DNA of 40,000 nucleotides from a bacterium (GTDB lineage: Bacteria > Patescibacteriota > Gracilibacteria > Absconditabacterales > Absconditicoccaceae): NCBI GenBank assembly GCA_043772005.1, contig JAYVGP010000009.1:4328-44327 (forward strand). The letters run 5' to 3'. This document shows, piece by piece, positions 1-24,959 of this stretch. How positions within the stretch are numbered: position 1 is the first letter of the stretch; every line of letters begins with the position of its first letter. The notes beneath the pieces are model-generated. The model was not told the DNA's origin. It did no database searches and saw nothing but the letters and a program-made list of their open reading frames with translations. Position numbers and translations under genes: made by a program.

Positions 1-781
1 TATCCCAATGAGCATGTGAACGATGTCAGTGCAAAATACTAGAAATAGATTGTTTGATATCAAGAATATGGCGATGATGTTTGTCGTGTCATTGAATCAG
101 CACGGCATACCTTAATAATCACAAACTTGCATTACCATTGACGCGCCTGACAACATCGAGCACCTTGGTTCCACGTACATGTGACAAAATCTGACTAATC
201 ACGCGGTCAACCTCCTCACACTCAGATGGTAGTAGCTCTTGAAATTCATCAGATCTGACGATGCGATTATGTTTTGTGAGCTTATCAATGAGTCGATCTT
301 GATCTTTGTAAATAAGCTTCTTGCTGATATGATGCTGTACTGGAGTATCTTCATCAATTTGCGATAAATCACCAACTTTACCATCGAGCAATAAGCTCAC
401 ATAACGATCTTGTGTGTATGCTATCATACGGGCTGAGTCATCAATACGTGAGCCAAACATACGATATACAATTGCAATACTTGTCACCAGACGAGTCAGA
501 TCTCGATGAATCTGTCACCAGTTGGCTTCATCAAAATCATTGATATCAAAATCAATCTGACCAGCCAATCACCTCATGGTACCAAAATTTTCTACGTGTA
601 GATCGCCACACACTCGTCACCATGGAGATTCAAATGTAAGACGATCCTCGAGAGCTTGGTAAAATAATACAGCACTTCATCTAAAAAATGCTACTGGGTT
701 ACTCGCCATTTTGGCCCACTTGCGCTTGAGTAGTTCTGGGTCGCGTCATGCGTTGATCTTGTATAATTGTTCAATAATCAT
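1..781 (-). CDS. DUF2252 domain protein (C-terminus runs off the window start)
   Basis: ATG at 781-779. Track ORF 119..487 extends in the same frame in both directions through TGA (515-517, 569-571, 617-619, 119-121). Translated motifs KMASNPVAFFRGSA, CGDLHVENFG and DFDINDFDEA are typical of DUF2252. Confidence 0.7.
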
Positions 782-847
782 GAATTGAGAGCTAGCTAAT
801 ATGATACACTATTATAGTTATAAATGAGAGAATTAGCAATAATAAGT

Positions 848-893
848 AAAACTTGATTACTAATGGGTCTTGACTATGTAGTAGATAACTATT
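848..893 (+). promoter_or_regulatory. Conserved 45-bp promoter-like box, copy A (TTGATT-N16-TATGTA core)
   Basis: AAAACTTGATTACTAATGGGTCTTGACTATGTAGTAGATAACTAT is near-identical to the reverse complement of 14545-14590. It lies in the intergenic gap between two minus-strand genes and points away from both. Confidence 0.35.
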
Positions 894-1053
894 ATATCGT
901 ATTTTATTCTGATTGATGTAGTAAATCTACTATAAAAAAACATCGCCAATGATGACAATGTCTGAATATTGAACTATGAAAACACAATGCACTACGTACT
1001 AGATTTTACATATAATAGTAATCCTACATTTATGTGAAATCCACTATAATGAA

Positions 1054-1914
1054 TTACTTATCATTGATTAAGCTTGCCATCTTACCTTCAAGGTTTTCGT
1101 TGACGTAAATAACCTTGGCGTTACTATGACCAATCTTCTCCAGTGTCTCAATCCTACTGGAAGCAAGGAGAAAATCAAGAATTTGTGATCATTTGAGATT
1201 TGAGTCAGACGATTTGATTTCTTCAATCGAATTCTTGAATCAGTTGGCAATTGCCTCTCTCTGGAGAGCCATACCCTCACCGATAAGCTTCTTGACCTGT
1301 TTGTCTGCTTCAGCTGAGAGGATATCTGACTGCTTACGTCACTCGGCGTCGTTGATGGCGGCGAGCTTATTTTTAGCTGATGCTACGACACTATTCATCG
1401 CATCGAGGACACGGTTATCAAGTTTGATGTCTTTGACCTGCACTGAATCAAGCTCCATACCGAACTCCTGTAACTTGACCGCAAGGATATTCTTGACCTC
1501 GTCACCGATCTCGTTACGCTTGGAGAAGATCTCATCATGAGCAAACTCATATACCTTGGCTCTGAGTTGTTCTTCGACCATTGATCTGATGGCTTTGATC
1601 GGATCATTGATGATGAAGAGTGAATCAGTAATCGCCTTATCATTGTCCTGTACACGGAAGATCACATTGAGATCGACTCTGGTATTAACATTATCACGAG
1701 TGATGCTATCTACTCCTACATCCAAGTTAGTCATGGCGAGTGTCTGACGTCTTGTGGATTGGATAATCGGGATGATGAAGTTGAGTCATGATCTGAGTAC
1801 GCCTGTCGGCTTACCAAGGGTAAGCACCACGAGAGCAGTCCTGGGTGAGACAATCTTGATACCTGAGAGTAATACGATGATGAATACACCGAGAATGATG
1901 AGTTGTATTGACAT
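1054..1914 (-). CDS. SPFH/band-7 (stomatin/prohibitin-like) membrane protein
   Basis: ATG 1914-1912 with an N-terminal TM segment (MSIQLIILGVFIIVLLSG). Track ORF 1339..1734 is the SPFH core. It continues through TGA at 1339-1341, 1240-1242 and 1189-1191 to TAA at 1056-1054. 286 aa. Confidence 0.8.
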
Positions 1915-1943
1915 ATTATATTAAATTTACAAATTAAAAATTA

Positions 1944-3551
1944 TTATTCCACTAGGTGCAATATCACACCTGCAAACTTGATCGTATCAGTCACCGTAAC
2001 CTGCTCGCCTGATGGTAGCATCATCGATCCGCTATCGCCACGCTGTCATCCCATCTCTGGGTAAAATACTGTCTGGTCGAGTACGATTACTCTCTGACCG
2101 TCCGCATCAAAATCAGATAACACTGCAAACTCAGAACTCGTCAGATGATCATATCATACAAATTTCGTCTCCGAGATTCCTCATAGATATTTGGACCGAT
2201 CAATTGTGTTTTTGAAGTTAGCGTTGGCACGAGAGCGAGCTTGAGCATTGGATAGGGCTGACTCAAATCATGATTGATCTACTGATTTATTGTTGTGTCA
2301 TGCGATCTCGATAGTAAGTTCACTGGGGAAGCCATAGGTATCATACAAGCGAAATACCGTCTCACCATCAATTGTATCCTCGGTCTTAGCAATAATATCT
2401 GCCAACATAACTCTACCCTGGTCGAGCGTACGTTGGAACTTAACACACTCAGAGATGATTGATACTGGATCAATAGTAATATGAGGATAATCTGTTGCAT
2501 AGTGTGCTTGGATATATCATAGGATCTGCTTGGTAATTTCTAATTGATGATCCTGGGCAAGTTGTCCGATGTAATAATATGCTCTACGGATCAGACGGCG
2601 GAGAATATATCATCTTCACTCGTTGCTCGGTGTGACACCATCTGCTACCAGGAAGATTGATGCTCTGAGGTGATCCATGATCACACGGTACGCTTTGAGA
2701 TGAGATTCATACTGTGTATGAGTCAATGTCTCAATCTGACGGATGATCGACAAAAACAGATCTGTCTCGAAAATGGTCTCAGTGTTTTGTAATACCATCA
2801 TCAAACGTTCAAATCACATACCTGTATCGACGTTGGTCTGAGATAGTGGCGTAAATCCATTGCCAGATCAGTCTTGGTAATATGCCATGAAGACGTTGTT
2901 CCGGATCTCAGTATAACGATCATTGACTCCAATATCCCAGTCTGATGGCATCGCATCTCCCGTAATAGGATCAGTATAGTTCTGCCCATCTACTCATCTA
3001 TCATAGTAGAACTCACAACAGGGTCCACAAGGCCCGATTGCTCCTGGAGTCCGGAAGTTGTCAGACTCACCATCCTCATCAAATCATAGCTCACTGATAC
3101 GCTCAATCCCTAGAGTCTTGAGGATATCATAACTTTCGGTATCACGAGGAATCCCAGTAGCTTGATCTCCAGCAAAGATCGTCGCACCCAAACGATGCTT
3201 GGGGATTCACAATACATCTACAAGAAACTCAACTGTCCATGTGAGGGCCTCAGTCTTGAAATAATCACCAAGTGACCAGTTACCCATCATCTCAAACATC
3301 GAAAGATGTCTCTCGTCTCCGATATCTTCGATATCATTGGTACGGATACAGCGTTGGATATTATGCAGACGCTGACCAAGTGGGTGTGGCTTACCCACCA
3401 AGTATGGCACAAACTGCTGCATCCCAGCAACATTAAATAAGACTGATTTGTTTTCAGAGCTTGCGACAAGTGATACTGGTTTTGCTTCAGCATGTTGCTT
3501 ACTAACCCAAAACTGATCTCGCATTTGCCTTACCTGACTTGAATTATACAT
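1944..3551 (-). CDS. alaS: Alanine--tRNA ligase, short form (catalytic + tRNA-recognition + beta-barrel only, 535 aa)
   Basis: The N-terminus in track ORF 3207..3551 is canonical AlaRS ([19 protein letters not shown]). Downstream fragments join via TGA. The motif [19 protein letters not shown] has its second G as TGA at 2046-2048. TAA stop at 1946-1944, about 26 codons after this GGQ motif. Confidence 0.85.
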
Positions 3552-4492: not shown

Positions 4493-7400
4493 TTAGAAGT
4501 TATCAGCAAAAGCTGAACCAAGATTAGTAGTTGAGAATCTAAGACCTGAGATAGTAGTCATACTATCTTCTTCTGAGTATGTTACATTTGCAGAATTCTT
4601 GTAATCGATAGCGATAGAAGAATCAGCTCCAAATGAAGCAGCATCAAGATCTACATAGAATGTAGCAGTCTCACCAGCACCTAAGATACTATCAGTACCT
4701 GTAAGGTTGAATGTTACTACACCAGCTGTACATGTACCAGTACCAAGAGTCGTAGAGTCACCTCTAAGAGCAAGGTTTACAGTACCTGAGAATCCAGCGT
4801 TAGTAGCACATACTAATGTAAGAGTCTTAAGAGCCAATTCAGCATCTTCAGTATCAGCTTGCTTAGAGTTAGTCCAAGAGTCAGCTGTAATTACCAATTT
4901 ACCGATTGTCTGATTAGGACTTGAAAGGTTTGAAGTATCGTAGTCAGTAAGAGCAAGAGCGCTAATTCTAACAGGAACGATAGCAACAGTATATGGAGAG
5001 TTTACATTAGCTTCAGTGATATCACTATTAGATGACATACCTTGAGCTTCTACTATCTGGAGACCGATTGTGAAATCAGGACTTCCATAGTTAGCAGTAA
5101 GACCATCACCCATAACATTAGTTACCAATCTTAGGTAGAGTACTTCAGTTTTACCTGCAGTAACTACATAGTTAAGATCGTTGATCTGTATAGATGTATC
5201 ACCATCAGATACAGTACCTTCGCTACCAGCGTTGAGTACAGTACCATCAGCCTTAACAATTTCTACCTTAGATACTAGATCAGTAAATACAGCAGCATTG
5301 TTGAAGGTAATAGCAAGATCTTCAAGTTTGATATCTTCATCACTAGCCTTAACTTTGAATGCAGCTACGTTCTTAGTAGAACCAGCAACAACATACATAT
5401 TGTTTTTGATAGTAGAGTTTGTAGTATCAGCAGATACGTCAAGATCACCATCACCTACGAGAACGATTGCTCTTGTAGTAAAGCTTGAACTATTAGCAAC
5501 AATATCGTTTTCATCGTCTCTAAACTCAAATGAACTTACGTTAGCTGAGATAGAACCAGTAAGACTATTGTTTGATGTTACGTCGATCTTCACAACATAC
5601 TTCTGAGTAGAAGATGCAGCGATGATTTCGTTGAATCCATCAAGATCAAGTGTACCAGCATTTGTGATATCACTACCGTTCCAAGATTCGATTACAGTAG
5701 CTGAACCGTCCTTGTAAAGAGCAATCTTAGTAATGTAGTTCTTGTTGAAGAATGTAGCATTACCAGTCATCATAAATTCTTTGAACTTGATAGATGAACT
5801 ATCATCAGTTTCAACTTGGAATGTGAAGAAGGCAATATCTTTTTGACCAGCTACTACGTCAAGAGACTGAGCAGAGATCTTAGATACCTTAACACCTGGT
5901 TCTACAATAGTAAGCTTGTCGAATGTCAATGAAGATGGAGTGATATCAGTGATATCTTCGTTTTCATCAAGATCTTCGAGAGCTATATTACTAGCCATAA
6001 GACTTAGTTGTACTGTATCTGCTACAAAACCGCTAAGATTAGCTTTAGTATCACCACGTACTTCGATTCTTACTTTCTTACCAGTTGGGATAGAAAGAGC
6101 AAGATCGTCGAATGTAAGAGTATTACCAATAGCATCTACTTCTTCAGTACTACCATCTACAGATACTTCGATTTTGTCAAAGATACCAGTCATAGTACCA
6201 CCACCAACAACACTAGCGTTGAATACAAGTGTATCGAGTTCTACATCGCTACCAGCGTTGACCGTAAGGTCAAATGCAGCAAGCAAGTAGTCGTCTCTAT
6301 CTTGTCTCATTTCGTCGATATCGAGGTTTACTTCTTCGAGAGTGACATCACCAGCGTCGATAGTAATTGTTGAACCAGCAGTAGGAACAGCATCGAGAGT
6401 TACAGCAAGACCGTAACCATATTTAGCGTCATGACCCATGATGTAATTTACGTCATCGATGATAAGCTTGATGTCTTCACCAATACCTGAGATAGGATCA
6501 GCCATTACTTTGAAGTCTTGTGATTCACCATCAGCGATCATAAGTGGCTTAGCAAATGTGAAAGTAAGATACTTACCGTCAACTTCTGATACTGTAGCTA
6601 CTTCTACACCATCAAACTCAAGAACGAAGTTCTCAAAGTTAGTTCTGATGTTGTTTTCGTCGTCTTCAAGAGTAATAGAGTCGATCATTACATCGTAGTC
6701 AGCATCCTTGTTTTCGATTTCGAATGAAGCAATTTCTACACCCTTGTCTCCAAGTTGTACAGTGTCGTCATTAACATCCATGTCGATTTCGATTTCAGTA
6801 GCGTTAACTGCACCTACTCTAAACTTGTTAGCGTCAACAGCGTCAACAGCGTTACCGTTTACTTCGATAGCAGCAATAGTGAACTCTTGGTTAGATGCAA
6901 TAGCTTCGTCTCCGATAGTTGCAACTACATCTACAGTCACTACATCACCAGCGGCGAGAGTAAGAGTAGGAGTAAGAGTAAACTCTCTTGTACCATCAGA
7001 TTCAAATGATCTAGTCTTAGAAGCAATTGTACCGTTGATGTAAAGAGTTACATCTTGGATAGAATCCTTGTTACCAAGACCGAGTCTTTCGAGAGTAATA
7101 GATGCCAACTTACCAGCTTTGTCAGCTTCGATGTCGAATGAAGCGACATGAGCAGGAGCAAGACCAGGAAGAGTAGTACCCTTTGGAGATTCAGCAGAAA
7201 CTGATACAGTGTATTCACCGTTACCAACTACTACAGGATCTACAGGGTCAACAGGATCTACTGGATCTGTAGGTTCTGTAGCACCTCTGTAAAGCATAAG
7301 AAGAGCTTCGTATCTAGTGATAGGTCTGTCAATAGCAGCACAGTCCGTTTCCTTAGTGATACCATTCTCTTGTGCATAAGTACAATAGTTCTTATACCAA

Positions 7401-7858
7401 GGAGAAGTAGCTTCATCCATTGATCCATCAAGTCCTCTTACGAGAGCTACGATAAATTGAGCTTTAGTCATGTTTGTTTTAGCCATAAACGCGTTATTTG
7501 AACCTCTAAGCAATCCTTGACCACAAGCTGTAGTAATAGATGCAGAAAGTGAAGGATCAAACATAGCAGCGTCTGAGAAGCTACAATCAATTGTTTCATC
7601 AACTTCAGTACCGAGAACTTCAGTAGCGAAAGCTGATAAGAATTTAGCTCCTTGTTCTCTTGTAAGAGTAGCAAAAGGCATAAAGGCAGTTTCTGTGCTG
7701 TACATTGTTAAACCTGTATTGTAACCCCACGCAAGCGCAGCGTCGAATTCAGGATCGTTCAATGCTCCAACCACAGGCGAAAGTGCCGTGAGAGTTACAT
7801 TAGCCATCATAGCAATAAGCATTGCAGATGATACTAGTTTTACGTTGAATTTATTCAT
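4493..7858 (-). CDS. S-layer-like surface protein with N-terminal signal peptide and three SLH-like domains (1121 aa)
   Basis: One unbroken ORF even in the standard code (track 4493..7951). I start it at the internal ATG 7858-7856, where MNKFNVKLVSSAMLIAMMANVTLTALSPVVGA looks like a signal peptide. SLH-like segments are present (WGYNTGL...FMPFATLTREQGAKFL; FSDAAMFDP...MTKAQFIVALVRGL; SPWYKNY...ITRYEALLMLYRG), then a PTDPVDPVDPVDPV linker, then about 850 aa of T/S/D/V/N-rich modules. Confidence 0.75.
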   Translation of the reverse strand: MNKFNVKLVSSAMLIAMMANVTLTALSPVVGALNDPEFDAALAWGYNTGLTMYSTETAFMPFATLTREQGAKFLSAFATEVLGTEVDETIDCSFSDAAMFDPSLSASITTACGQGLLRGSNNAFMAKTNMTKAQFIVALVRGLDGSMDEATSPWYKNYCTYAQENGITKETDCAAIDRPITRYEALLMLYRGATEPTDPVDPVDPVDPVVVGNGEYTVSVSAESPKGTTLPGLAPAHVASFDIEADKAGKLASITLERLGLGNKDSIQDVTLYINGTIASKTRSFESDGTREFTLTPTLTLAAGDVVTVDVVATIGDEAIASNQEFTIAAIEVNGNAVDAVDANKFRVGAVNATEIEIDMDVNDDTVQLGDKGVEIASFEIENKDADYDVMIDSITLEDDENNIRTNFENFVLEFDGVEVATVSEVDGKYLTFTFAKPLMIADGESQDFKVMADPISGIGEDIKLIIDDVNYIMGHDAKYGYGLAVTLDAVPTAGSTITIDAGDVTLEEVNLDIDEMRQDRDDYLLAAFDLTVNAGSDVELDTLVFNASVVGGGTMTGIFDKIEVSVDGSTEEVDAIGNTLTFDDLALSIPTGKKVRIEVRGDTKANLSGFVADTVQLSLMASNIALEDLDENEDITDITPSSLTFDKLTIVEPGVKVSKISAQSLDVVAGQKDIAFFTFQVETDDSSSIKFKEFMMTGNATFFNKNYITKIALYKDGSATVIESWNGSDITNAGTLDLDGFNEIIAASSTQKYVVKIDVTSNNSLTGSISANVSSFEFRDDENDIVANSSSFTTRAIVLVGDGDLDVSADTTNSTIKNNMYVVAGSTKNVAAFKVKASDEDIKLEDLAITFNNAAVFTDLVSKVEIVKADGTVLNAGSEGTVSDGDTSIQINDLNYVVTAGKTEVLYLRLVTNVMGDGLTANYGSPDFTIGLQIVEAQGMSSNSDITEANVNSPYTVAIVPVRISALALTDYDTSNLSSPNQTIGKLVITADSWTNSKQADTEDAELALKTLTLVCATNAGFSGTVNLALRGDSTTLGTGTCTAGVVTFNLTGTDSILGAGETATFYVDLDAASFGADSSIAIDYKNSANVTYSEEDSMTTISGLRFSTTNLGSAFADNF

Positions 7859-8080
7859 CCGAATAAAAGTAAAAAATAAAAAAGAATTACATGAGACAAA
7901 ATATCTCACTGTGTCTCCACACAGCTTGACGCCAAGATAGTGATCAGACATACGAATACAAGTGAAAATGTACCAATGTCTGACACGCCCTGTGTACGGT
8001 CGTCACCATGTATGTACGACTATATCTGATGCTTGTGACAATTATGATGTCTGACAGAGTATGTATTAGATTGACAATCT

Positions 8081-18675: not shown

Positions 18676-19269
18676 ATGGAAATAAGTATTGAAAAAGCAA
18701 TTTGAAATTGGAAAGATTCGCGTAACCCAATTATCATAGTGGCATCAACCATACAAGATATTGTACGTGGCATTCCTAAACTTATGGAAATACAAGCTAA
18801 AACATCAGCAAGTGTATTGTGAATATTTAGTCGTACACTAAACTTTTGAAAAGAAATTGGTCTTGATTGTTCTTGCAAAGATTGGCTCAATAGCAACGAA
18901 GGGACTCACTATCTTGATATGTGTAAACAGCTATGTCTCAATACTGATATTAATCAAGAAAAATCCCAAAAGATACTACAGTCACTATTTAAAGACTATC
19001 AACAAATAGTGCAAAAGTCTCACTGAGAGACACCTGAAATAGTAGCCTGAGACTATCTTGAGCATATGCGGGATATGTCAGGACATATTACTAAAAGTCG
19101 ATGAGAGCGATTGATTGAGCAAATATACTATGAACTATATACTGAAGAAAGTATCATGATTGGTAATGATTCTATAAAAAAACTACATAAATTTATCGAA
19201 AGAATGGAGCAGTATAAAGAAAATGCTTTTATCGATCCATATAAACAAAAAACTAACCATAACAGCTAG
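18676..19269 (+). CDS. Hypothetical protein (197 aa)
   Basis: ATG 18676. One frame is open with TGA=Gly to TAG at 19267-19269. No recognisable motifs. The opposite-strand track ORF 18657..18896 is judged less likely. Confidence 0.4.
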
Positions 19270-19276
19270 TTTTATG

Positions 19277-19348
19277 CAGGCCCTGCAAGACTCGAACTCG
19301 CGACGCGAGGCTTTGGAGACCTCCGCTCTACCTCTGAGCTAAGGGCCT
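19277..19348 (-). tRNA. tRNA-Trp (anticodon CCA)
   Basis: Hand fold: acceptor AGGCCCT/AGGGCCT with A1-U72 and G73, D arm GCTC-AGAGGTA-GAGC, anticodon arm GAGGT-CTCCAAA-GCCTC, T arm GCGAG-TTCGAGT-CTTGC. Confidence 0.9.
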
Positions 19349-19389
19349 AGTATGTGAGTATATAATGATTATGAGACTAGTTTCAATCA

Positions 19390-20853
19390 CTAGTTTTTTG
19401 TTTTGGTAAAATTGATCATAATAGTCTGCATATCACCAGTACTACGAAGATGATATGCTGCTCACTGTGCAGGTGGAGCGGAGAAGATTTTAGTTTGATC
19501 ACCATCACCACTAACCTGATCAAATATGATACCTGTGCCTGCAAACACGACCGAACGATACTCGAACAATGGATTCAATCCAAGGATATGACGCTCACGA
19601 TCAGTCAGGTTAATACCATATTGCTCCTGTAGTTGATCAATCGTACGAAGGTATTGTGAAGGGACTGATAGTGTATAATTGATATGGAGCTCATATGATC
19701 ATACCGGTAGAACTGAAATATCAAGAATATTATCTTGCGACTGCATCATCTCCTGGCCGTCACTAGCCTCAATTGATATATGTTTGATAACAAAGGTATC
19801 AATCTTATTATATGATTGATTAAGATCCCATAGATACAGATGCTGCGACTCAAGATCAGTGATCCAGTTAAACTGCTTGAGTGTAGAACGAAATGCTGGG
19901 TCAATGTCTGGTAAATATATTTGCATCATCCCAGGAGCGAATAATTGTCAATAATTCGTTAATGCCTGTCCTAGTAATGATACTTTATTCTGACTCACAT
20001 ATTGTTGTACTTCGTCCATGTAGAGCTGCTTTTTGAATCATGTATCAGAACCACGAATCAGATCGACCGATGCATTGATAAACTGCCGCTTCCACAACTG
20101 TGCTTGCAGCAATGGTACTAGTTTCGTTAGTGTCTTAGTACTAATAAAGAATACACCATCAATAGTGGTATCGTATGTTTTGTTATAGATAGCAGAAATT
20201 GCAAAACCATCACGATCAGTAAAGCCAAATTTGTTACCAGCAATAAAGGTCGCCGTATTGTGTCATAGATAATGCTTAGTCCATTCAGGAAGTGAAAGCA
20301 CTACTCATGAATTACTAAATGGTACCTCATAACTATCATGAATACTCATATCTTGAATCACCCCACTTGTAACTTTTACACGGACAAATGAACCATAAAA
20401 ACCACCATTGGGTCTGACTTCTGCACTATTCTGTAGAAGAATCAAGTAGGTCTTAGGCTCACGATATCATAGATAGTCTAATAGCAACTCACGATGAGGA
20501 TACAAATCACATCATAATTCGGACGTGAATCAGGTCAGTATAACAGCTAATTCTTGTGAAGGAGCACAACTCTCCTGATACCAATCATCATAAAGCTGAA
20601 GTAGTTGATCTTGAGGTATAGATTTGTTCTGCTTGAAGTAGTTGATCAAGGTGAGTGCTGTGCGCTGAACTGATGGACTATGGATAGTAGACAGAGCAAA
20701 AGACCTTAGAGATCACAGAGAGAGTGATTGAGTCTTACTGACAAACTGCTGTAATCATCGTGATATAACAAAAACACACAACAAGAGTATAGTAATCAAC
20801 CGCCGGACAAACCTACGCCACTGCTTCGGCTTTGTAATTATAGCAAATCACAT
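19390..20853 (-). CDS. DUF4012 domain protein (487 aa), N-terminal TM anchor
   Basis: ATG 20853-20851. Hallmark LILLQNSAEVRPNGGFYGSFVRVKVTSGVIQD. Track ORF 19699..19929 is in the same frame. TAG stop at 19392-19390. It starts 24 bp after the stop of the lamin-tail gene. Confidence 0.7.
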
Positions 20854-20876
20854 AATATTGGGGCTAACTGATTTCA

Positions 20877-23800
20877 TTATAGGAGGTTTTGTAGGGTTTC
20901 TCGTAGGGTAGATCGTCGAGATTGAGATTGTGATGCATCGTGTGAAAGCTGTGATATGAGCAATCATGATCCGATGTCTATTCATGTCGTTTGACTCAGT
21001 ATTGGATCAAGATAGATTGCTGGATAATGTTGCTGGATATATAGTTTCTCTTGATAATACTGGGCATTACGGTCCGATAAGGTTTGAATATATTCCTTAC
21101 TCGACTGATATAACTGTGTAATACGAGTAGCATATGCACGAGACTGTTCAAGTTTGGTATGAAGCAGATCGATATAATCTTGTTTACTATTGGTAATGCT
21201 ACGATATGTTTGGTATAATTCATTCGTCTTACTACGATAACGATCCCATATATCACTAATTTCTTGATACTGTTCTTGTTTCAGCACCTTATTGATAAGT
21301 TTTTGTTCTCTCAAATCAAGGTTCAATAGTTCTAATGCATCGTCACTATCCGATATTGTCACAATCTGACCTTCATCAGCATAAAGTTCGCGCATCTTGT
21401 TGGAAATCTCAATAGTCGTCAAATCAAGCATATCTGAACTATGATAACTGCCATAACATACTTGGTCGTATATGGTTTCTCAATCAGTCAATGCAACACA
21501 TCATCCGTCGTTGGGTAGTGGAAATGAATCATAGATCAACTGCGCTAAGTCCGATCATCAAGATCAGGTGATAACTCTATTAGCCTTATTATTAATCACT
21601 AACAATAAAACTGATCACGATTGCGCTTGTTCATCATCCCATATCAATGAGACCAACTCTCATCCATCAGTATCACGTCACGGCGGATCAGCAATAATAC
21701 GATCAATCATAACTGCTTGATGCTGTTGAAAACGATACAACGATAATGATGCATCAGTATTGCTCGACGATGCTGTTCCACTGGATGATTGCTGTTGAAT
21801 AGATGTATCGAACGAGCATTCTCAGCCAAGTTGATCTTGCGCGTTAACGGTGCATCACTGCTTTCTGATATTGGTAGCAAGCACATCATGCTTATCCTTT
21901 CGCTTACGATAGAGGTCCTCATAATAGGTCGAGGTAGATGATGGCGAAGTAGATGATGAACTACTACTTGATATCGATGGATAGCTGATAAATGAATGAG
22001 TCTGACACAGCTGCTGTCCATCCTTGCTAATCGTGAGCTGTAGTGGTGCAAGTATCGCTTGGGGCAGAGTGAAATATCATGGATTGCAGCTGTCGGAGCC
22101 GGTGAACGTAAGTCAAGATCGCTGACACTGGTAGCTACTAGAATTTTGTATTTCATCTCTATCCAGCGATGCAATGAGGTTGATCGAGTTGCCAAATCTC
22201 AATGGAGTTGTATGCTGCGCCACAATACCACATACATGCTGTTCTCCAGTTTGAATGATAGTTGTTGTGAGCGTATTGGTGATCGTTTGCTGATGTATTG
22301 CTCCATAAAACATATATTCATCTTCACAAACCATAGTAGCACCACTATATTGTTGATAGGTAACACGGTGGGATCATGGAGCAAATGACTGTCACAGCGA
22401 ACATGAATTATTGGTTGATATAGCTCAATCGACCAATCGGGAGCTTGATGAGCAAGTTGAGTCTACTAAACTTCCGGACACAGTAAATCATGCAGAAAAT
22501 GATCCTGTGATATATCACTCATTGACAGCACTAATACGACATCATCCGATTTGTGGGACTTGTATTGATTGATGACAAGATGTCAGAAGAGTGGTTGCTT
22601 GATTGGTAGTAAAGATTCTTGTGCCTCATGAGTATGAAGTGAATATACTTGCTTTATTGGCTTGTGTGGATGAATAAATGACTGAGTCAAGCACCAAGCC
22701 TGATCAATTGCTCATAATAAGAGATTCTCCGTCATCGGTGAGCGTCATATTGGGCACCAGTATGACATTGTCAGACAAGACTCCACTCATCGATTCCACA
22801 AGGTATCGTACCGATCCAGACTGAGCTGAAATATCAAAGATCTTACTGGTATCTGATGTTCCCAGCCCAGCAATAGTGAGGGATCATGAGTAGGGTGCAG
22901 TAAACGACAGTGATAGATGCTCACCCACACAGTCAGCAAATGGATATATTTGAGAAATCTGGATCGATCAGGTAAGTTGTGTTCAAGTTAAAATTATTCA
23001 GGTCATGACTATTCATGTAACAACAATACCTGTACTAGCAGCTCCCGTGATTATCATTCAAGTTACAACAGTTCATGTCGTTACTACTCCAGTAAAAATG
23101 GTACCAGTACTAATTGATCATGTTATCAACAATCAAGTCGAAATAGTTCATGTGTTTGCAGGAAATAACGTGAGTCACCGCACGAGTCATGGATTGCCAC
23201 GATGTCATGAAATGATATTTGTGTTGTGAGATATTGGCGTAACTTGCCAGAGTTGTTGAGAAAAATCATACTCTCGAGCAGCAGACTGGTTATCGGATCA
23301 TAGTACTTGTGATACAATCAGATCGAGAGAGTCAATCACGTCTCCACTATAGATCAGCTGTAATGAGCGAGCAGTAGTATCTGTCATAGATAATCACTGC
23401 CCAGATACAATATCAAATCACGATGACACTACCATCGCTAGCGTATCACCAATCACTACGCTCTCATTGGTTCATAAATTCAAAGTAGTTGTTAGTAATC
23501 AAGATGTTTTGACTCAAGAAATACTCACTGATCCTATAAAAGGATCTCACCGATTTGTTAGTTCAATATATTCATCAGTACCATCGATCCTGACTTCAGT
23601 GATGCTGAGCTGTGGCGATGGATTTGGTAGTACGAATGATGTCATCATAAGCATCAATGACGAAATATCTTCCTGTGGCTCATTTTCAACACTAGAATAA
23701 GCGATTTCTGGTGGATTTTGCTCCACTGCTCACTGTCAGACTGTGGGCTGGGACGAATCAGGGATCAATAATCCTCACGTACTATCTAACGGTCATGATC

Positions 23801-24164
23801 ACACAATACTACCTGATGAGTTAGACACAACATCTGTCGTACTTCATGATTCGACACCAGGAAAGATATTAGTATCAGATTGATCTTGCGCAATATTGCT
23901 ATCACTATCGACGATAGGTAAAAGCTCTGGCTGTCATGGTTTGTCTGACATAAGACTTAGAACTTCGACAGTATTGGACGCTTGCTCTGATTCAAAATCA
24001 TTATATACAAGCTCTTCTCAAGATCACGGGATCGAAATAGTGATGTCTTGTGCGACAGCCCGACTCAAACATGTCTGACATAGTATGACAACTATCGACA
24101 TTCGACTTAGACATGTCTGACATAGTATGACATAATACGACAGCAAACAATACTTGTCTGACAT
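20877..24164 (-). CDS. Giant surface-type protein with three lamin-tail-domain (LTD)-like segments, a (TGxxx)13 repeat and a Q/Y-rich coiled-coil C-terminus (about 1095 aa)
   Basis: One minus-strand frame has no TAA/TAG from 24236 down to TAA at 20879-20877. Track ORFs 22113..22334 and 20982..21431 are in this frame. LTD-like motifs: ITEVRIDGTDEYIELTNRG; IQISQIYPFADCVGEHLSLS...LTDDGESLIM; MIDRIIADPPGRDTDGGELVSLIW...LPNDGGCVALTDGETIYDQVCYG. The start is uncertain: ATG at 24164, 24101 or 23951. Confidence 0.65.
22965..23153 (-). repeat. 13 tandem 15-bp units encoding the pentapeptide repeat T-G-x-x-x inside the LTD gene
   Basis: Translated: TGTIS TGLLI TGSIS TGTIF TGVVT TGTVV TGMII TGAAS TGIVV TGIVM TGIIL TGTQL TGS. 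The Gly codons in order are TGA TGA TGA GGT GGA TGA TGA GGA GGT TGA TGA TGA TGA. Confidence 0.85.
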
Positions 24165-24294
24165 TTGTATAGTAAAAATAATATAAAAGATACAAGAATG
24201 CTTTATATAACTAATATCTGATAATCTTTTTGTGTCTTATTTTGTCTGACAAAGTATGACAGATTTGTCTATGTCTGTCATCAATACTATGACA
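24072..24294. repeat. Array of direct 19-bp repeats TGTCTGACAnAGTATGACA (plus degenerate copies)
   Basis: Exact TGTCTGACATAGTATGACA at 24072-24090 and 24114-24132. TGTCTGACAAAGTATGACA at 24243-24261. A half copy at 24155-24163. A variant TGTCTGTCATCAATACTATGACA at 24272-24294. The related TGTCTGACAGAGTATGTAT is at 8048-8066. Start-to-start spacings are 42, 41 and 88 bp. Confidence 0.8.
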
Positions 24295-24816
24295 GATTTT
24301 GACACTCTTGGACAAATCTAGCGAAAGTGCTGTCAAATTGCAAGATTATTTTGTCAAAGTCTGTCAAGAGGGATTTGACATGATACGACTGTAATATAAG
24401 TAATCATATATTATGTTGTACTATAAGTTAATAGCGCGACAAAAATACGACAATAAAACAACGAATTATAGCGACTTTACTCAATAGACACCATGACACG
24501 AATCATTCAGATCGGCTTATCATAGCCTGTCATGCTAACGTTTGGTTAGAGGATTTTTGTTTTTTACGCTTGTAGAGTTACTAAAATTTCGTATACCATC
24601 AACATATCAATAAATCCAAATAGTTTATTGATCTGTACAAACAAAAATCTGTTGTTAACATTCCGTTCTCTGTATATCTTAGAGCAGAATATCAACTCCC
24701 ACCCGGGTAGGTGTTATTCAATTACGCTCCGAAGATTGACTTTAAACTTACGAATCAATGACTTATATCAATTAGTGGTAATCATCACTACTTCATATAA
24801 ATCGCTGTTTCAGTGG

Positions 24817-24872
24817 TTGTGTCTCTCTTCGGGGCACAATCACTAAATCAGCATGTTTTCTTGCTGATTTTT
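24817..24872 (+). terminator. Two consecutive hairpins, the second an intrinsic-terminator-like stem plus T-run, inside the long non-coding region before pheT
   Basis: TTGTGTCTC-tcttc-GGGGCACAA (24817-24839), then AATCAGCA-tgttttct-TGCTGATT followed by TTT (24846-24872). Confidence 0.55.
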
Positions 24873-24959
24873 CGTTTATGAAAAACATGAGCTGAGATTG
24901 ATTTTCGATAGTGATTGTGTAGATTATATGCAATATTTAATCTTATTTTATCGTATCTA

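What the first reader, a model, noticed from the sequence alone, without database searches (positions are those of the whole stretch)
20877..24164. Hidden 3.3-kb gene: multi-lamin-tail-domain giant protein followed by a DUF4012 gene
In the standard code this region looks like small ORFs on both strands. With TGA=Gly, one minus-strand frame is open for about 3.3 kb. It encodes three LTD-like segments (ITEVRIDGTDEYIELTNRG; IQISQIYPFADCVGEHLSLS; IIADPPGRDTDGGELVSLIW...LPNDGGCVALTD), Ser/Thr-rich linkers, the TGxxx repeat and a Q/Y-rich coiled-coil tail. The gene stops 24 bp before a DUF4012 gene (19390-20853) on the same strand, which suggests an envelope operon. In other bacteria, LTD modules sit on extracellular nucleases and competence-related or adhesion proteins. 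For an organism of this type, presumably host- or prey-dependent, this is a candidate attachment or DNA-capture factor (inference).
Basis: partly seen in the sequence, partly recalled or inferred. Interest (0 to 1): 0.65.

Follow-up and report, generated by a model that had tools for sequence, protein, structure and literature searches.

The report
Recoded surface protein with DUF4012 partner
Read with the correct genetic code (TGA = glycine), this stretch is one real 1,095-residue secreted modular protein gene of a small, probably host-dependent bacterium; it is uncharacterised but of a familiar kind, always sits directly before a membrane-anchored DUF4012 gene, and begins inside an unusually rigid, phased DNA motif array that probably controls it.

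Summary
With TGA read as Gly (shown within the gene family and independently in a housekeeping gene), 20877-24164(-) is one 1,095-codon gene with 51 in-frame TGA codons. Public assemblies already call it, as an unnamed hypothetical protein.

It has nine distinct orthologous loci and belongs to a superfamily of about 220 clusters, nearly all from TGA-recoded lineages.

The "three LTD segments" claim is partly supported. The window's own modules are all below Pfam's LTD threshold. Transitive and profile evidence still places modules 1 and 2 in one divergent LTD-type family and module 5 in a second.

The TGxxx spacer, Ser-rich linkers and a roughly 105-residue helical tail are real.

DUF4012 is confirmed, but it starts at 20877, overlapping the stop codon (TAATG), not 24 bp downstream. 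This tight junction occurs in 9 of 9 orthologous loci. More distant paralogues lack it; they sit by MurG, two of three near ComEC, and some carry SNase.

Most likely this is a secreted envelope fibre or adhesin assembled or anchored through DUF4012. A DNA-capture role is not supported for this protein.

Unexpected: a TGTC array with 10-nt phasing spans the promoter and the first 38 codons, in identical register in all nine loci.

The parts
20877..24164 (-). Complete gene for a 1,095-aa modular secreted protein (table 25; 51 TGA=Gly codons; TAA stop at 20879-20877)
   Evidence: Open frame and codon counts. Identical product already in public collections as P0001. ATG at 24164 conserved in 9 of 9 orthologous loci. 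Frame 0 has no TAA/TAG in +1..+285 in the 7 loci tested; the other frames have 1-7 each.
24051..24164 (-). Residues 1-38: probable Sec signal peptide (MSDKYCLLSYYVILCQTCLSRMSIVVILCQTCLSRAVA|QD). It is overlaid by the phased TGTC array and contains a 42-nt tandem duplication.
   Evidence: It is the only hydrophobic segment of the protein (Kyte-Doolittle 2.27 over residues 23-33). A V/I-x-A|Q/E/D site is conserved in orthologues. Paralogues have classical signal peptides ending A-x-A|Q. TRF finds period 42, 2 copies, at 24061-24142. No signal-peptide predictor was available, so this is inference.
23640..24050 (-). Residues 39-175: acidic, Ser/Gly/Pro-rich variable linker (net charge -22)
   Evidence: Composition. 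Poorly conserved and rich in indels in the family alignment.
23160..23621 (-). Module 1 (residues about 182-335): divergent LTD-type beta module (type A), ITEVRIDGTDEYIELTNRG...GNPG
   Evidence: Pfam LTD at 16.6 bits in the window and 17.7-20.3 bits in orthologues, covering 3-106 of 109 profile positions. P0013 scores 44.1 bits, above the cutoff, in the region that matches this module. 3 of 28 diverse family members hit LTD.
22959..23153 (-). (x-x-x-T-G) pentapeptide spacer: 13 TG dipeptides at exact 5-residue spacing. Length varies from 23 to 63 aa among orthologues.
   Evidence: Translation. Orthologue segments. No DNA-level tandem repeat by TRF. No Pfam pentapeptide hit. Modelled as coil at pLDDT 20-26.
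22605..22958 (-). Module 2 (residues about 403-520): second, more divergent copy of the type-A module (IQISQIYPFADCVGEHLSLSF...LTDDGESL)
   Evidence: No Pfam hit. Iterated profiles of modules 1 and 2 converge on the same domains, 225 of 233. hhalign against the module 1 family gives probability 77%, E=2e-5, 103 columns.
22281..22583 (-). Module 3 (residues about 528-628): Cys-containing beta module of unknown family
   Evidence: Invariant Cys columns. Found in about 20 superfamily proteins. No Pfam or PDB match.
21966..22247 (-). Module 4 (residues about 640-733): 4-Cys beta module, optional (present in 5 of 9 orthologues) and widespread in the superfamily
   Evidence: Presence/absence in the alignment. 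64 instances in 59 proteins. AF2 model shows strands at pLDDT 50-72.
21732..21965 (-). Ser-rich linker, the conserved YYEDLYRKRK helix and a low-complexity stretch (residues 734-811)
   Evidence: Alignment. AF2 helix at model residues 112-135, with disordered flanks.
21435..21713 (-). Module 5 (residues about 818-910): LTD-type beta module (type B) with a conserved Cys pair (IIADPPGRDTDGGELV...FPLPNDGGCVAL...DQVCYG)
   Evidence: The window copy has no Pfam hit. Orthologues score 16.9, 23.3 and 34.1 bits against a cutoff of 34.3. 8 of 33 diverse family members hit LTD, and no other family appears. AF2 gives an 8-strand beta module.
21027..21344 (-). Residues 941-1046: single long amphipathic alpha-helix (probable coiled-coil stalk), Q/Y/L-rich
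   Evidence: AF2 helix at model residues 306-411, pLDDT 59-75. Hydrophobic periodicity of 3.6 residues. The tail profile is found only in the 10 proteins of this orthologous group.
20880..20918 (-). Conserved C-terminal helix SRRSTLxETIxNLF (residues 1083-1095)
   Evidence: Alignment. AF2 helix at model residues 448-459.
19390..20877 (-). DUF4012 gene (495 aa). It has an N-terminal basic stretch plus one transmembrane helix. Its start codon overlaps the upstream stop (TAATG).
   Evidence: Pfam PF13196 at 49.5 bits against a cutoff of 28. Junction sequences and the conserved ..PNIMGF.. N-terminus. Hydropathy 1.89 over RRLITILLLCVFVISRGLQ. The same pairing occurs in all orthologous loci.
24054..24314 (-). 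Phased TGTC array with embedded TGTC-N-GACA palindromes, spanning the putative promoter and codons 1-38
   Evidence: TGTC at -150, -140, -130, -87, +1, +22, +32, +42, +51, +64, +74, +84 and +107; the downstream sites keep the same register in all 9 loci (+22 is missing in two) and the upstream sites shift by about 10 nt in one. Spacing of 10 nt occurs 45 times. TGTC columns are 0.97-0.99 conserved at all three codon positions, against 0.69-0.81 elsewhere. This is the densest TGTC cluster in the window.

Best explanation
Shown:
- 20877-24164(-) is one functional gene of a bacterium that reads TGA as glycine. That is translation table 25, used by Gracilibacteria and Absconditabacteria.
- The product has this order: N-terminal hydrophobic leader; acidic linker; LTD-type module; variable (xxxTG)n spacer; second LTD-type module; two Cys-containing beta modules (one optional); Ser-rich linker; a third LTD-type module of a different subtype; a helix of about 105 residues; a short conserved C-terminal helix.
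- The gene is directly followed by a DUF4012 gene, with a junction of -1 to +11 nt in the eight loci where the start could be read. DUF4012 has a single N-terminal transmembrane helix.

Inferred mechanism:
- The protein is exported by Sec and its leader is cleaved after AVA38.
- The even-numbered Cys in each module form disulfides outside the cell.
- The long helix oligomerises into a coiled-coil stalk.
- The lineage-specific tail docks on, or is assembled by, the membrane-anchored DUF4012 partner, which is made in step with it through translational coupling.
- The N-terminal LTD-type modules then sit distally, on a length-variable spacer, as binding heads.

The most likely role is an envelope fibre or adhesin that binds a surface or polymer of a host or prey cell.

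Expression is probably controlled through the conserved phased TGTC/TGTC-N-GACA array across the promoter and start codon.
For: Gene and genetic code.

Orthologues with the same architecture in nine distinct loci.

LTD-type modules:
- Consistent sub-threshold LTD hits with full profile coverage.
- A relative above threshold at the homologous module.
- 8 of 33 and 3 of 28 family members hit LTD, essentially the only family that appears.
- 19 of 44 superfamily members hit LTD, best E=6.6e-73.
- Modules 1 and 2 converge on the same domains, and hhalign gives 77% probability.

Extracellular location:
- Paralogues carry classical signal peptides.
- The N-terminal segment is the only hydrophobic one, followed by an A-x-A|Q-like site.
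- Cys occur in pairs within modules, and the Cys pair of module 5 is nearly invariant.

Stalk: AF2 predicts a 105-residue helix with 3.6-residue hydrophobic periodicity.

Link to DUF4012:
- Pfam hit above the cutoff.
- TAATG overlap or a gap of 11 nt or less wherever the start could be read.
- The pairing and the helical tail occur together only in this orthologous group.

Context: cultivated relatives are epibiotic predators whose surfaces are rich in very large proteins thought to mediate attachment (PMC8080830). DUF4012 is a CPR/Gram-positive-enriched, envelope-associated family (PMC6744442).
Against: - None of the window's three modules reaches Pfam's LTD gathering score.
- The two module families align with each other only weakly (E=0.013).
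- Structure models are poor (pLDDT 33.5 and 53). Foldseek gave only non-significant, generic Ig/FN3 matches. Profile searches of PDB sequences found nothing.
- The leader is atypical for a signal peptide. It has a long n-region and polar residues in the h-region, and its sequence is constrained at the DNA level. Export from this start is therefore inferred, not shown.
- No recognisable wall- or membrane-anchor motif is present.
- The interaction with DUF4012 rests on gene order and co-occurrence only.
- The biochemical role of bacterial LTDs is unknown (PMC6085458).
- No expression or proteome data were examined.
Confidence: 0.6

Rival explanations
1. DNA-capture factor. The LTD modules bind extracellular DNA at the cell surface and feed it to nucleases or the competence machinery.
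For: 6 of 44 wider superfamily members carry an SNase domain between the same module types. Paralogues P0009 and P0160 lie 3-4 kb from ComEC. LTDs occur on extracellular nucleases such as ExeM and in Izemoplasmatales DNA-degradation loci. Gracilibacteria strongly express endonucleases and type IV pili (PMC11452946).
Against: This protein has no nuclease, OB-fold or other nucleic-acid-binding domain. The nuclease- and ComEC-linked relatives are a separate paralogue group, found after MurG, without DUF4012 and without the helical tail. The ExeM LTD is dispensable for DNA degradation, and DNA binding by an LTD has not been shown. The long linker is strongly acidic (net charge -22).
Confidence: 0.12
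2. Envelope-biogenesis scaffold. The pair acts in building or organising the wall, capsule or surface layer. DUF4012 would be the functional core and the LTD protein a structural accessory, rather than a host-binding adhesin.
For: DUF4012 sits in the capsular/exopolysaccharide cluster of Bifidobacterium longum 105-A, where it is annotated as an auxiliary envelope protein. The related paralogues sit next to MurG, a polysaccharide pyruvyl transferase and glycosyltransferases. Bacterial LTDs have been proposed to direct proteins to the membrane or to membrane-associated structures (Mans et al. 2004, as cited in PMC6085458).
Against: There are no polysaccharide-synthesis genes around the pair in the window or in the orthologous loci. 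The neighbours are pheT, rluD, malic enzyme and a tRNA. The variable-length spacers and the optional module look like a surface-exposed, diversifying protein.
Confidence: 0.2
3. Not a single gene. The region is a pseudogene, or a set of small standard-code ORFs, and the long frame is an accident of ignoring TGA.
For: In table 11 only short ORFs are seen. 57% of Gly codons here are TGA, the highest share among the genes checked.
Against: The frame is open and collinear in nine diverged orthologues. TGA aligns with GGN codons. The recoding is window-wide and is confirmed against solved standard-code structures. Conservation runs along the full length.
Confidence: 0.02

Closest known systems
Bacterial multi-LTD secreted proteins (Pfam PF00932), the class described by Mans et al. 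2004 as cited in PMC6085458
   Same: Signal peptide followed by several LTD-type beta modules in one secreted or envelope protein. Relatives in the same superfamily score well above the Pfam threshold (best E=6.6e-73).
   Different: The window's own modules are too divergent to pass the Pfam threshold. Two distinct module subtypes are used in a fixed order. A pentapeptide spacer, Cys modules, a long helical tail and an obligatory DUF4012 partner are added.
ExeM/NucH-type LTD-bearing extracellular nucleases (Shewanella oneidensis ExeM; PMC6085458)
   Same: N-terminal signal sequence, then an LTD. Envelope-associated.
   Different: ExeM has YhcR-like OB and EEP nuclease domains that are essential for activity. 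The window protein has no catalytic domain. ExeM has a single LTD and no coiled coil.
SNase-containing paralogues of the same superfamily (for example P0009, 1,039 aa)
   Same: Same module order (type A, type A, ..., type B modules). Same recoded lineages.
   Different: They carry PF00565 SNase and classical signal peptides. They sit after MurG, near ComEC. They have no helical tail, no DUF4012 neighbour and no TGTC array.
DUF4012 (PF13196) proteins, for example BL105A_0406 in the Bifidobacterium longum 105-A EPS cluster
   Same: The downstream gene is a member above threshold. The family is enriched in CPR and Gram-positive bacteria and is linked to the envelope.
   Different: Here it is translationally coupled to an LTD protein rather than embedded among polysaccharide-synthesis genes. 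Its function is unknown in every case.
Giant surface proteins of Vampirococcus lugosii (PMC8080830)
   Same: Same broad lineage and the same presumed role, host recognition and attachment by large modular surface proteins.
   Different: No sequence relationship was tested. Those proteins are 1,392-4,163 aa with other domain types.
Pho-box / OmpR-PhoB-type direct-repeat operator arrays (own knowledge: E. coli CTGTCATA(A/T)A(A/T)CTGTCA(C/T))
   Same: The unit TGTCAnA is repeated in helical phase across a promoter.
   Different: The period is 10 nt, not 11. The array has more than 12 units and runs 110 nt into the coding region. It includes 4-1-4 palindromes and motifs in both orientations. No cognate regulator was identified. 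This resemblance is recalled, not tested.

Membership tests
Translation table 25 (TGA=Gly; SR1/Absconditabacteria and Gracilibacteria) | TGA is a sense codon throughout the genome | tested here: met
   Long ORFs total 81.7 kb with TGA as sense against 20.0 kb in table 11. Every housekeeping gene checked contains in-frame TGA.
Translation table 25 (TGA=Gly; SR1/Absconditabacteria and Gracilibacteria) | TGA encodes Gly rather than Trp (table 4) | tested here: met
   TGA columns pair with GGN 18.4% and with TGG 0.2%. 7 of 10 TGA codons in malic enzyme align with Gly in PDB 5cee, and none with Trp.
Lamin tail domain (Pfam PF00932) | Sequence scores at or above the Pfam gathering threshold (34.3 bits) | tested here: not met
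   Window protein: 15.6 bits for the whole protein, 16.6 bits for module 1 alone, and no hit for modules 2 and 5.
Lamin tail domain (Pfam PF00932) | Homology to bona fide LTDs through intermediate sequences | tested here: met
   Module 1 family: P0013 at 44.1 bits across profile positions 6-105 in the homologous region. Module 5 family: an orthologue at 34.1 bits, and 8 of 33 members hit LTD. Superfamily: 19 of 44 members, best E=6.6e-73. Module 2 is linked only through module 1.
Lamin tail domain (Pfam PF00932) | Ig-like beta-sandwich fold matching solved LTD structures | tested here: inconclusive
   Models are all-beta but low confidence (pLDDT 33.5 and 53). Foldseek found no match at E<=0.001, only generic Ig/FN3 ectodomains. 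The tools accepted only table-4 mistranslations, with Trp at each of the 51 TGA codons.
DUF4012 (Pfam PF13196) | Score above the gathering threshold (28 bits) | tested here: met
   49.5 bits, E=8.4e-13, profile positions 2-116 of 144. The called orthologous neighbours carry the same precomputed hit.
Pentapeptide-repeat proteins (Pfam PF00805) | HMM match or A(D/N)LXX-type consensus forming a beta-helix | tested here: not met
   No Pfam hit at E<=1. The consensus here is xxx-T-G. The region is modelled as coil at pLDDT 20-26. Copy number varies from about 5 to 13 among orthologues, as expected of a spacer.
LTD-bearing extracellular nucleases (ExeM/SNase type) | Presence of a nuclease domain (EEP, SNase or YhcR-like) | tested here: not met
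   There is no nuclease family hit in Pfam or NCBIfam for the window protein. SNase occurs only in other paralogues.
Sec-exported protein | N-terminal signal peptide with n-, h- and c-regions and an A-x-A cleavage site | tested here: inconclusive
   Judged by hand only. K4 and R21 lie in the n-region, the h-region is SIVVILCQTCL (Kyte-Doolittle 2.27), and AVA|QD follows. Paralogues have textbook signal peptides. No predictor was available.
Coiled-coil stalk | Long uninterrupted amphipathic helix with heptad-like periodicity | tested here: met
   AF2 gives a single helix of 105 residues at pLDDT 59-75. The strongest hydrophobic periodicity is 3.6 residues. Oligomeric state was not tested.

The most novel reading that the evidence does not exclude
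The phased TGTC / TGTC-N-GACA array is a lineage-specific cis-regulatory switch that governs expression of surface proteins in TGA-recoded CPR bacteria. It has a 10-nt period, keeps the same register in nine loci whose proteins are only 40-65% identical, and runs from the promoter through the start codon into the first 38 codons. It could be an operator array for a protein that polymerises along one face of the DNA, or an invertible or phase-variable element. Its constraint is strong enough to dictate the amino-acid sequence of the signal peptide. Copies of the palindrome also lie in front of the TGA-free secreted-protein gene at 4493-7858(-), which hints at a shared surface-protein regulon. 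Together with the LTD-DUF4012 pair, this would define a regulated attachment apparatus.
Probability: 0.3. Interest if true: 0.65.

Novelty: new variant of a known kind. Interest (0 to 1): 0.4.

Why it matters
Gracilibacteria and Absconditabacteria are largely uncultivated. The few cultivated members are epibiotic predators, and how they recognise and hold on to their hosts is unknown.

This locus gives a concrete, conserved candidate: a secreted multi-LTD fibre protein that always travels with a membrane-anchored DUF4012 protein. DUF4012 is itself one of the unexplained families enriched in CPR and Gram-positive bacteria, so the pairing offers a way to approach its function.

The result also shows that LTD modules in these lineages are too divergent for standard Pfam annotation and are made worse by table-4 mistranslation. 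The superfamily of about 220 clusters is therefore mostly unlabelled in public data.

The conserved 5' array would be one of the first candidate transcriptional control elements described for these organisms.

The finding as stated is otherwise ordinary. The gene is hidden only if the wrong code is used, and it is already predicted in public assemblies.

Tried and rejected
- NCBIfam scan of both proteins: nothing.
- Profile searches of PDB sequences with module alignments, shallow and deep, and with DUF4012: no significant hit.
- AlphaFold2. The N-half model is unusable (pLDDT 33.5). The C-half model is modest (pLDDT 53).
- Foldseek against the PDB: only non-significant generic Ig/FN3 matches.
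- Second word-indexed homologue search with the alignment: only two more proteins.
- hhalign of module 2 against the module 5 family: nothing.
- Pentapeptide-repeat family for the TGxxx region: rejected.
- Replication origin as an explanation of the long intergenic region and array: rejected. There is no GC-skew switch, and the array follows the gene in loci with different upstream neighbours.
- Known RNA family in the leader: none in Rfam.
- Promoter consensus scan: not enriched over shuffles.
- Literature search for the motif: nothing relevant.
- My own first impression that the TGA-free neighbour has an SLH domain: not supported by Pfam.
- Metagenome scan for relatives of that neighbour: none found, so the 'shared regulon' idea could not be tested.
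- RNA pairing between the -87 and +1 palindromes: considered unlikely. The central bases (A/A, T/T, G/A) never become complementary.
Full report
THE OBSERVATION

Under the standard code the region holds only short ORFs, of 162 aa or less, on both strands. If TGA is read as a sense codon, the minus-strand frame 20877..24236 is open for 1,120 codons. It has ATG codons at 24164, 24101 and 23951, 51 in-frame TGA, 38 GGN, 3 TGG, and a TAA stop at 20879-20877.

This is not peculiar to this gene. Across the window, stop-to-stop ORFs of at least 100 codons total 81.7 kb with TGA as sense. The totals are 20.0 kb in table 11, 32.4 kb with TAG as sense and 28.9 kb with TAA as sense. The ORFs that open up are ordinary housekeeping genes: alaS, pheT, gltX, uvrD, miaA and malic enzyme.

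WHICH AMINO ACID TGA ENCODES

I retranslated eight family members from their DNA and aligned them codon by codon. Columns with TGA in one sequence hold TGA (51.7%), GGN (18.4%) or TGG (0.2%) in the others. TGG columns almost never hold TGA (2.4%).

As an independent check I used the window's malic-enzyme gene. Of its 10 TGA codons, 7 align with Gly in the solved standard-code enzyme 5cee, including the AFPG, VLGLGN and FGxINLEDIK motifs. None aligns with Trp.

The organism therefore uses translation table 25, the code of Gracilibacteria and Absconditabacteria (established knowledge). The public protein collection holds this product as a 1,095-aa unnamed protein translated with Trp at TGA (P0001). 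The gene is 'hidden' only from a table-11 reader.

THE FAMILY

The protein has full-length relatives at 40-65% identity in nine distinct loci: the window (also fetched as L001), L002, L003, L004, L005, L006, L008, L009 and L013. Several were mis-started by gene callers (see the side notes).

An exhaustive profile search of 1.84 billion cluster representatives finds 220 proteins at E<=1e-3, 117 at 1e-10 and 44 at 1e-30. Many match through several stretches. Their median Trp content is 4.4%, so nearly all come from TGA-recoded organisms.

ARCHITECTURE (residue numbers from the ATG at 24164)

- 1-38: hydrophobic leader.
- 39-175: acidic Ser/Gly/Pro-rich linker, net charge -22.
- About 182-335: module 1.
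- 338-402: (xxxTG) repeated 13 times.
- About 403-520: module 2.
- About 528-628: module 3, Cys-containing.
- About 640-733: module 4, with 4 Cys. It is present in 5 of 9 orthologues.
- 734-811: Ser-rich linker with the YYEDLYRKRK helix.
- About 818-910: module 5.
- 941-1046: one long helix.
- 1083-1095: conserved terminal helix.

The pentapeptide periodicity exists only at the protein level, because TRF finds no DNA repeat there. The spacer varies from 23 to 63 residues among orthologues, has no Pfam pentapeptide hit and is modelled as coil. It behaves as a length-variable spacer.

ARE THE THREE SEGMENTS LTDs?

Directly, no. The whole protein gives one LTD stretch at 15.6 bits against a cutoff of 34.3. 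With correct Gly translation, module 1 alone scores 16.6 bits, and modules 2 and 5 score nothing.

Indirectly, yes for modules 1 and 5:
- Orthologous module 1 sequences score 17.7-20.3 bits with alignment over positions 3-106 of the 109-position profile.
- Orthologous module 5 sequences score 16.9, 23.3 and 34.1 bits.
- The distant relative P0013 scores 44.1 bits across profile positions 6-105, in exactly the region that matches module 1.
- Among diverse members collected by iterated local profiles, 8 of 33 (module 5 type) and 3 of 28 (module 1 type) hit LTD at E<=1e-3. It is the only family for the module 5 type; one module 1 member also gave a hit to T6PP_N, presumably by chance.
- 19 of 44 full-length superfamily members hit LTD, best E=6.6e-73.

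Module 2 never hits Pfam. However, iterated profiles seeded from modules 1 and 2 converge on the same domain instances, 225 of 233. hhalign of module 2 against the module 1 family gives 77% probability and E=2e-5 over 103 columns.

The module 1/2 family and the module 5 family align with each other only weakly, at E=0.013, though in register.

I conclude that the protein has two copies of one divergent LTD subtype and one copy of a second subtype. Strict Pfam membership of the window's own sequence is not met. Structural confirmation failed, as set out below.

STRUCTURE ATTEMPTS

With an 8-sequence alignment, the N-half model is unusable (pLDDT 33.5), although it is all-beta in modules 1-3.

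The C-half model (pLDDT 53) shows a beta module for module 4, eight strands for module 5, and a single helix of 105 residues at pLDDT 59-75. Foldseek against the PDB returns no match at E<=0.001, only generic tandem Ig/FN3 ectodomains. Profile searches of PDB sequences were negative.

The helix has its strongest hydrophobic periodicity at 3.6 residues, as expected of a coiled-coil-forming amphipathic helix.

THE DUF4012 NEIGHBOUR

The downstream product scores 49.5 bits against a cutoff of 28. Its N-terminus, MKSVSPNIMGF..KPKQWRRFVRR-LITILLLCVFVI, is a basic stretch followed by one transmembrane helix.

The true start is therefore ATG 20877, which shares its A with the TAA stop of the LTD gene.

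In the orthologues the junction is -1 to +11 nt: -1, 0, 0, 3, 11, and 0 in L003 once its start is corrected. L013 also has the DUF4012 gene directly downstream, but its start codon is unclear. All nine loci have the pair. A tRNA-Trp(CCA) follows on the same strand.

WHAT IS SPECIFIC TO THIS ORTHOLOGOUS GROUP

A survey of module order across the superfamily gives a consistent pattern: A-A-(3)-(4)-B(n). The commonest form is A-A-4-B. The helical tail profile is found in only 10 proteins, all of this orthologous group.

Three more distant paralogues were examined in their genomic context. All lie directly after MurG and beside a pyruvyl transferase, and two are 3-4 kb from ComEC. One carries SNase. 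None is followed by DUF4012. These paralogues have textbook signal peptides ending A-x-A|Q.

The tail and the DUF4012 partner therefore co-occur. This is the basis, and only an inference, for proposing that the tail docks on DUF4012.

FUNCTION

What is known about bacterial LTDs is thin. In ExeM the LTD is dispensable for extracellular DNA degradation, its role is 'not yet elucidated', and a role in targeting to the membrane or to membrane-associated structures has been suggested (PMC6085458).

DUF4012 is enriched in CPR and Gram-positive bacteria and has been seen in an exopolysaccharide cluster (PMC6744442 and PMC5412050). Cultivated Absconditabacteria are epibiotic predators with surfaces rich in very large proteins thought to mediate attachment (PMC8080830).

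With paired Cys in each module, these points favour an exported, disulfide-stabilised surface fibre whose LTD-type heads bind a partner. DUF4012 would be its membrane-proximal anchor or assembly factor.

The DNA-capture idea fits the SNase/ComEC paralogues better than this protein, which has no nuclease or nucleic-acid-binding domain.

AN UNEXPECTED FEATURE AT THE 5' END

The palindrome TGTCAGACA occurs five times within 310 nt here. Window-wide there are 36 one-mismatch hits, against 17.1 +/- 3.9 expected.

More generally, the sense-strand tetranucleotide TGTC sits at -150, -140, -130, -87, +1, +22, +32, +42, +51, +64, +74, +84 and +107 relative to the ATG. The downstream sites are in the same register in all nine loci, apart from +22, which is missing in two. 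In L013 the upstream sites are shifted by about 10 nt. The dominant spacing is 10 nt, seen 45 times.

Because 10 is not a multiple of 3, the motif cycles through all three codon phases (MS, YV, CQ/CL). Across the nine loci the TGTC columns are 0.99, 0.97 and 0.98 conserved at codon positions 1, 2 and 3. Other columns are 0.74, 0.81 and 0.69 conserved. The constraint is therefore on the nucleotides.

This explains the odd, Cys-rich, apparently 'conserved' leader peptide and the 42-nt duplication.

The reading frame is nevertheless kept. In the seven loci tested there is no TAA or TAG in frame 0 over +1..+285, against 1-7 in each of the other frames. The ATG at +1 is present in all nine loci. 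So 24164 is the best-supported start.

Other details:
- Further upstream the motif mostly appears in the opposite orientation.
- 13-nt inverted repeats bracket the putative promoter and the start codon.
- The central base of the palindromes varies without becoming complementary between copies. This argues for a DNA-binding dimer rather than RNA pairing.
- Two further palindromes and the second-densest minus-strand TGTC cluster lie in front of the TGA-free secreted-protein gene at 4493-7858(-).
- The paralogues lack the array.

I could not identify the binding factor, nor test inversion. The resemblance of the unit TGTCAnA to Pho-box half-sites comes from memory only.

VERDICT

The LTD assignment is right in substance but rests on transitive homology. 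The junction with DUF4012 was misplaced. The functional guess of 'attachment' is reasonable, while 'DNA capture' is not supported for this protein.

As a gene it is an unannotated, lineage-restricted variant of a known class, multi-LTD secreted proteins, already present in public gene calls. Interest is moderate. The conserved DUF4012 coupling and, above all, the phased 5' array are the parts worth following.

Noticed in passing
window 24054-24314 (-), extending to about 24370; same positions in L002, L003, L004, L005, L006, L008, L009, L013: A phased TGTC array (10-nt period) with TGTC-N-GACA palindromes runs from the promoter through the ATG into codons 1-38. The downstream sites keep the same register in all nine orthologous loci. 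TGTC columns are 97-99% conserved at every codon position, so the DNA motif dictates the leader peptide. It is a candidate operator array or phase-variation element; no factor was identified.
   Followed up: partly
window 4493-7858 (-), 5' region 7876-8075: An 1,121-aa secreted protein (classical signal peptide MNKFNVKLVSSAMLIAMMANVTLTALSPVVGA) uses no TGA among 81 Gly codons, while other genes checked use TGA for 20-57% of Gly. It has no Pfam match. Two TGTCAGACA palindromes and a TGTC cluster lie upstream of it. It may be a highly expressed surface-layer protein that avoids the recoded codon. No relatives were found by the metagenome scan.
   Followed up: partly
window 20877-24164 (-) compared with other genes: The LTD gene has the highest TGA share of Gly codons among the genes checked, 57% (51 of 89). 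Most glycines of the TGxxx spacer are TGA.
   Followed up: no
L004 5215-8190; L003 about 425-3439; L005 5800-9045: Public gene calls for three orthologues start too late. P0008 is truncated by about 260 residues, and P0006 and P0002 miss the leader. In each case the in-frame MSDK start with the TGTC array lies upstream.
   Followed up: yes
L010 5001-8120, L011 5001-7496, L012 5001-8570: Distant paralogues of the superfamily lie directly after MurG and beside a polysaccharide pyruvyl transferase; two are 3-4 kb from ComEC. P0009 carries an SNase domain. This is a separate, possibly DNA-uptake-related branch without DUF4012.
   Followed up: partly
window 21966-22247 (-): Module 4 (about 95 aa, 4 Cys) is present in five orthologues (window, L002, L003, L005, L013) and cleanly absent from four (L004, L006, L008, L009). 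The same module type occurs in 59 superfamily proteins, which suggests modular gain and loss.
   Followed up: partly
window 24165-24911: The intergenic region between the divergent LTD gene and pheT is about 750 nt, long for so compact a genome. No Rfam family matches it, and promoter-like sites over the wider stretch scanned (19200-24950) are not more frequent than in shuffled sequence. Only its proximal 200 nt is explained, by the array.
   Followed up: partly
window 19276-19348 (-): tRNA-Trp(CCA) lies 41 nt downstream of the DUF4012 stop on the same strand, possibly co-transcribed with the pair. The tRNA that reads TGA as Gly is not in this window.
   Followed up: no
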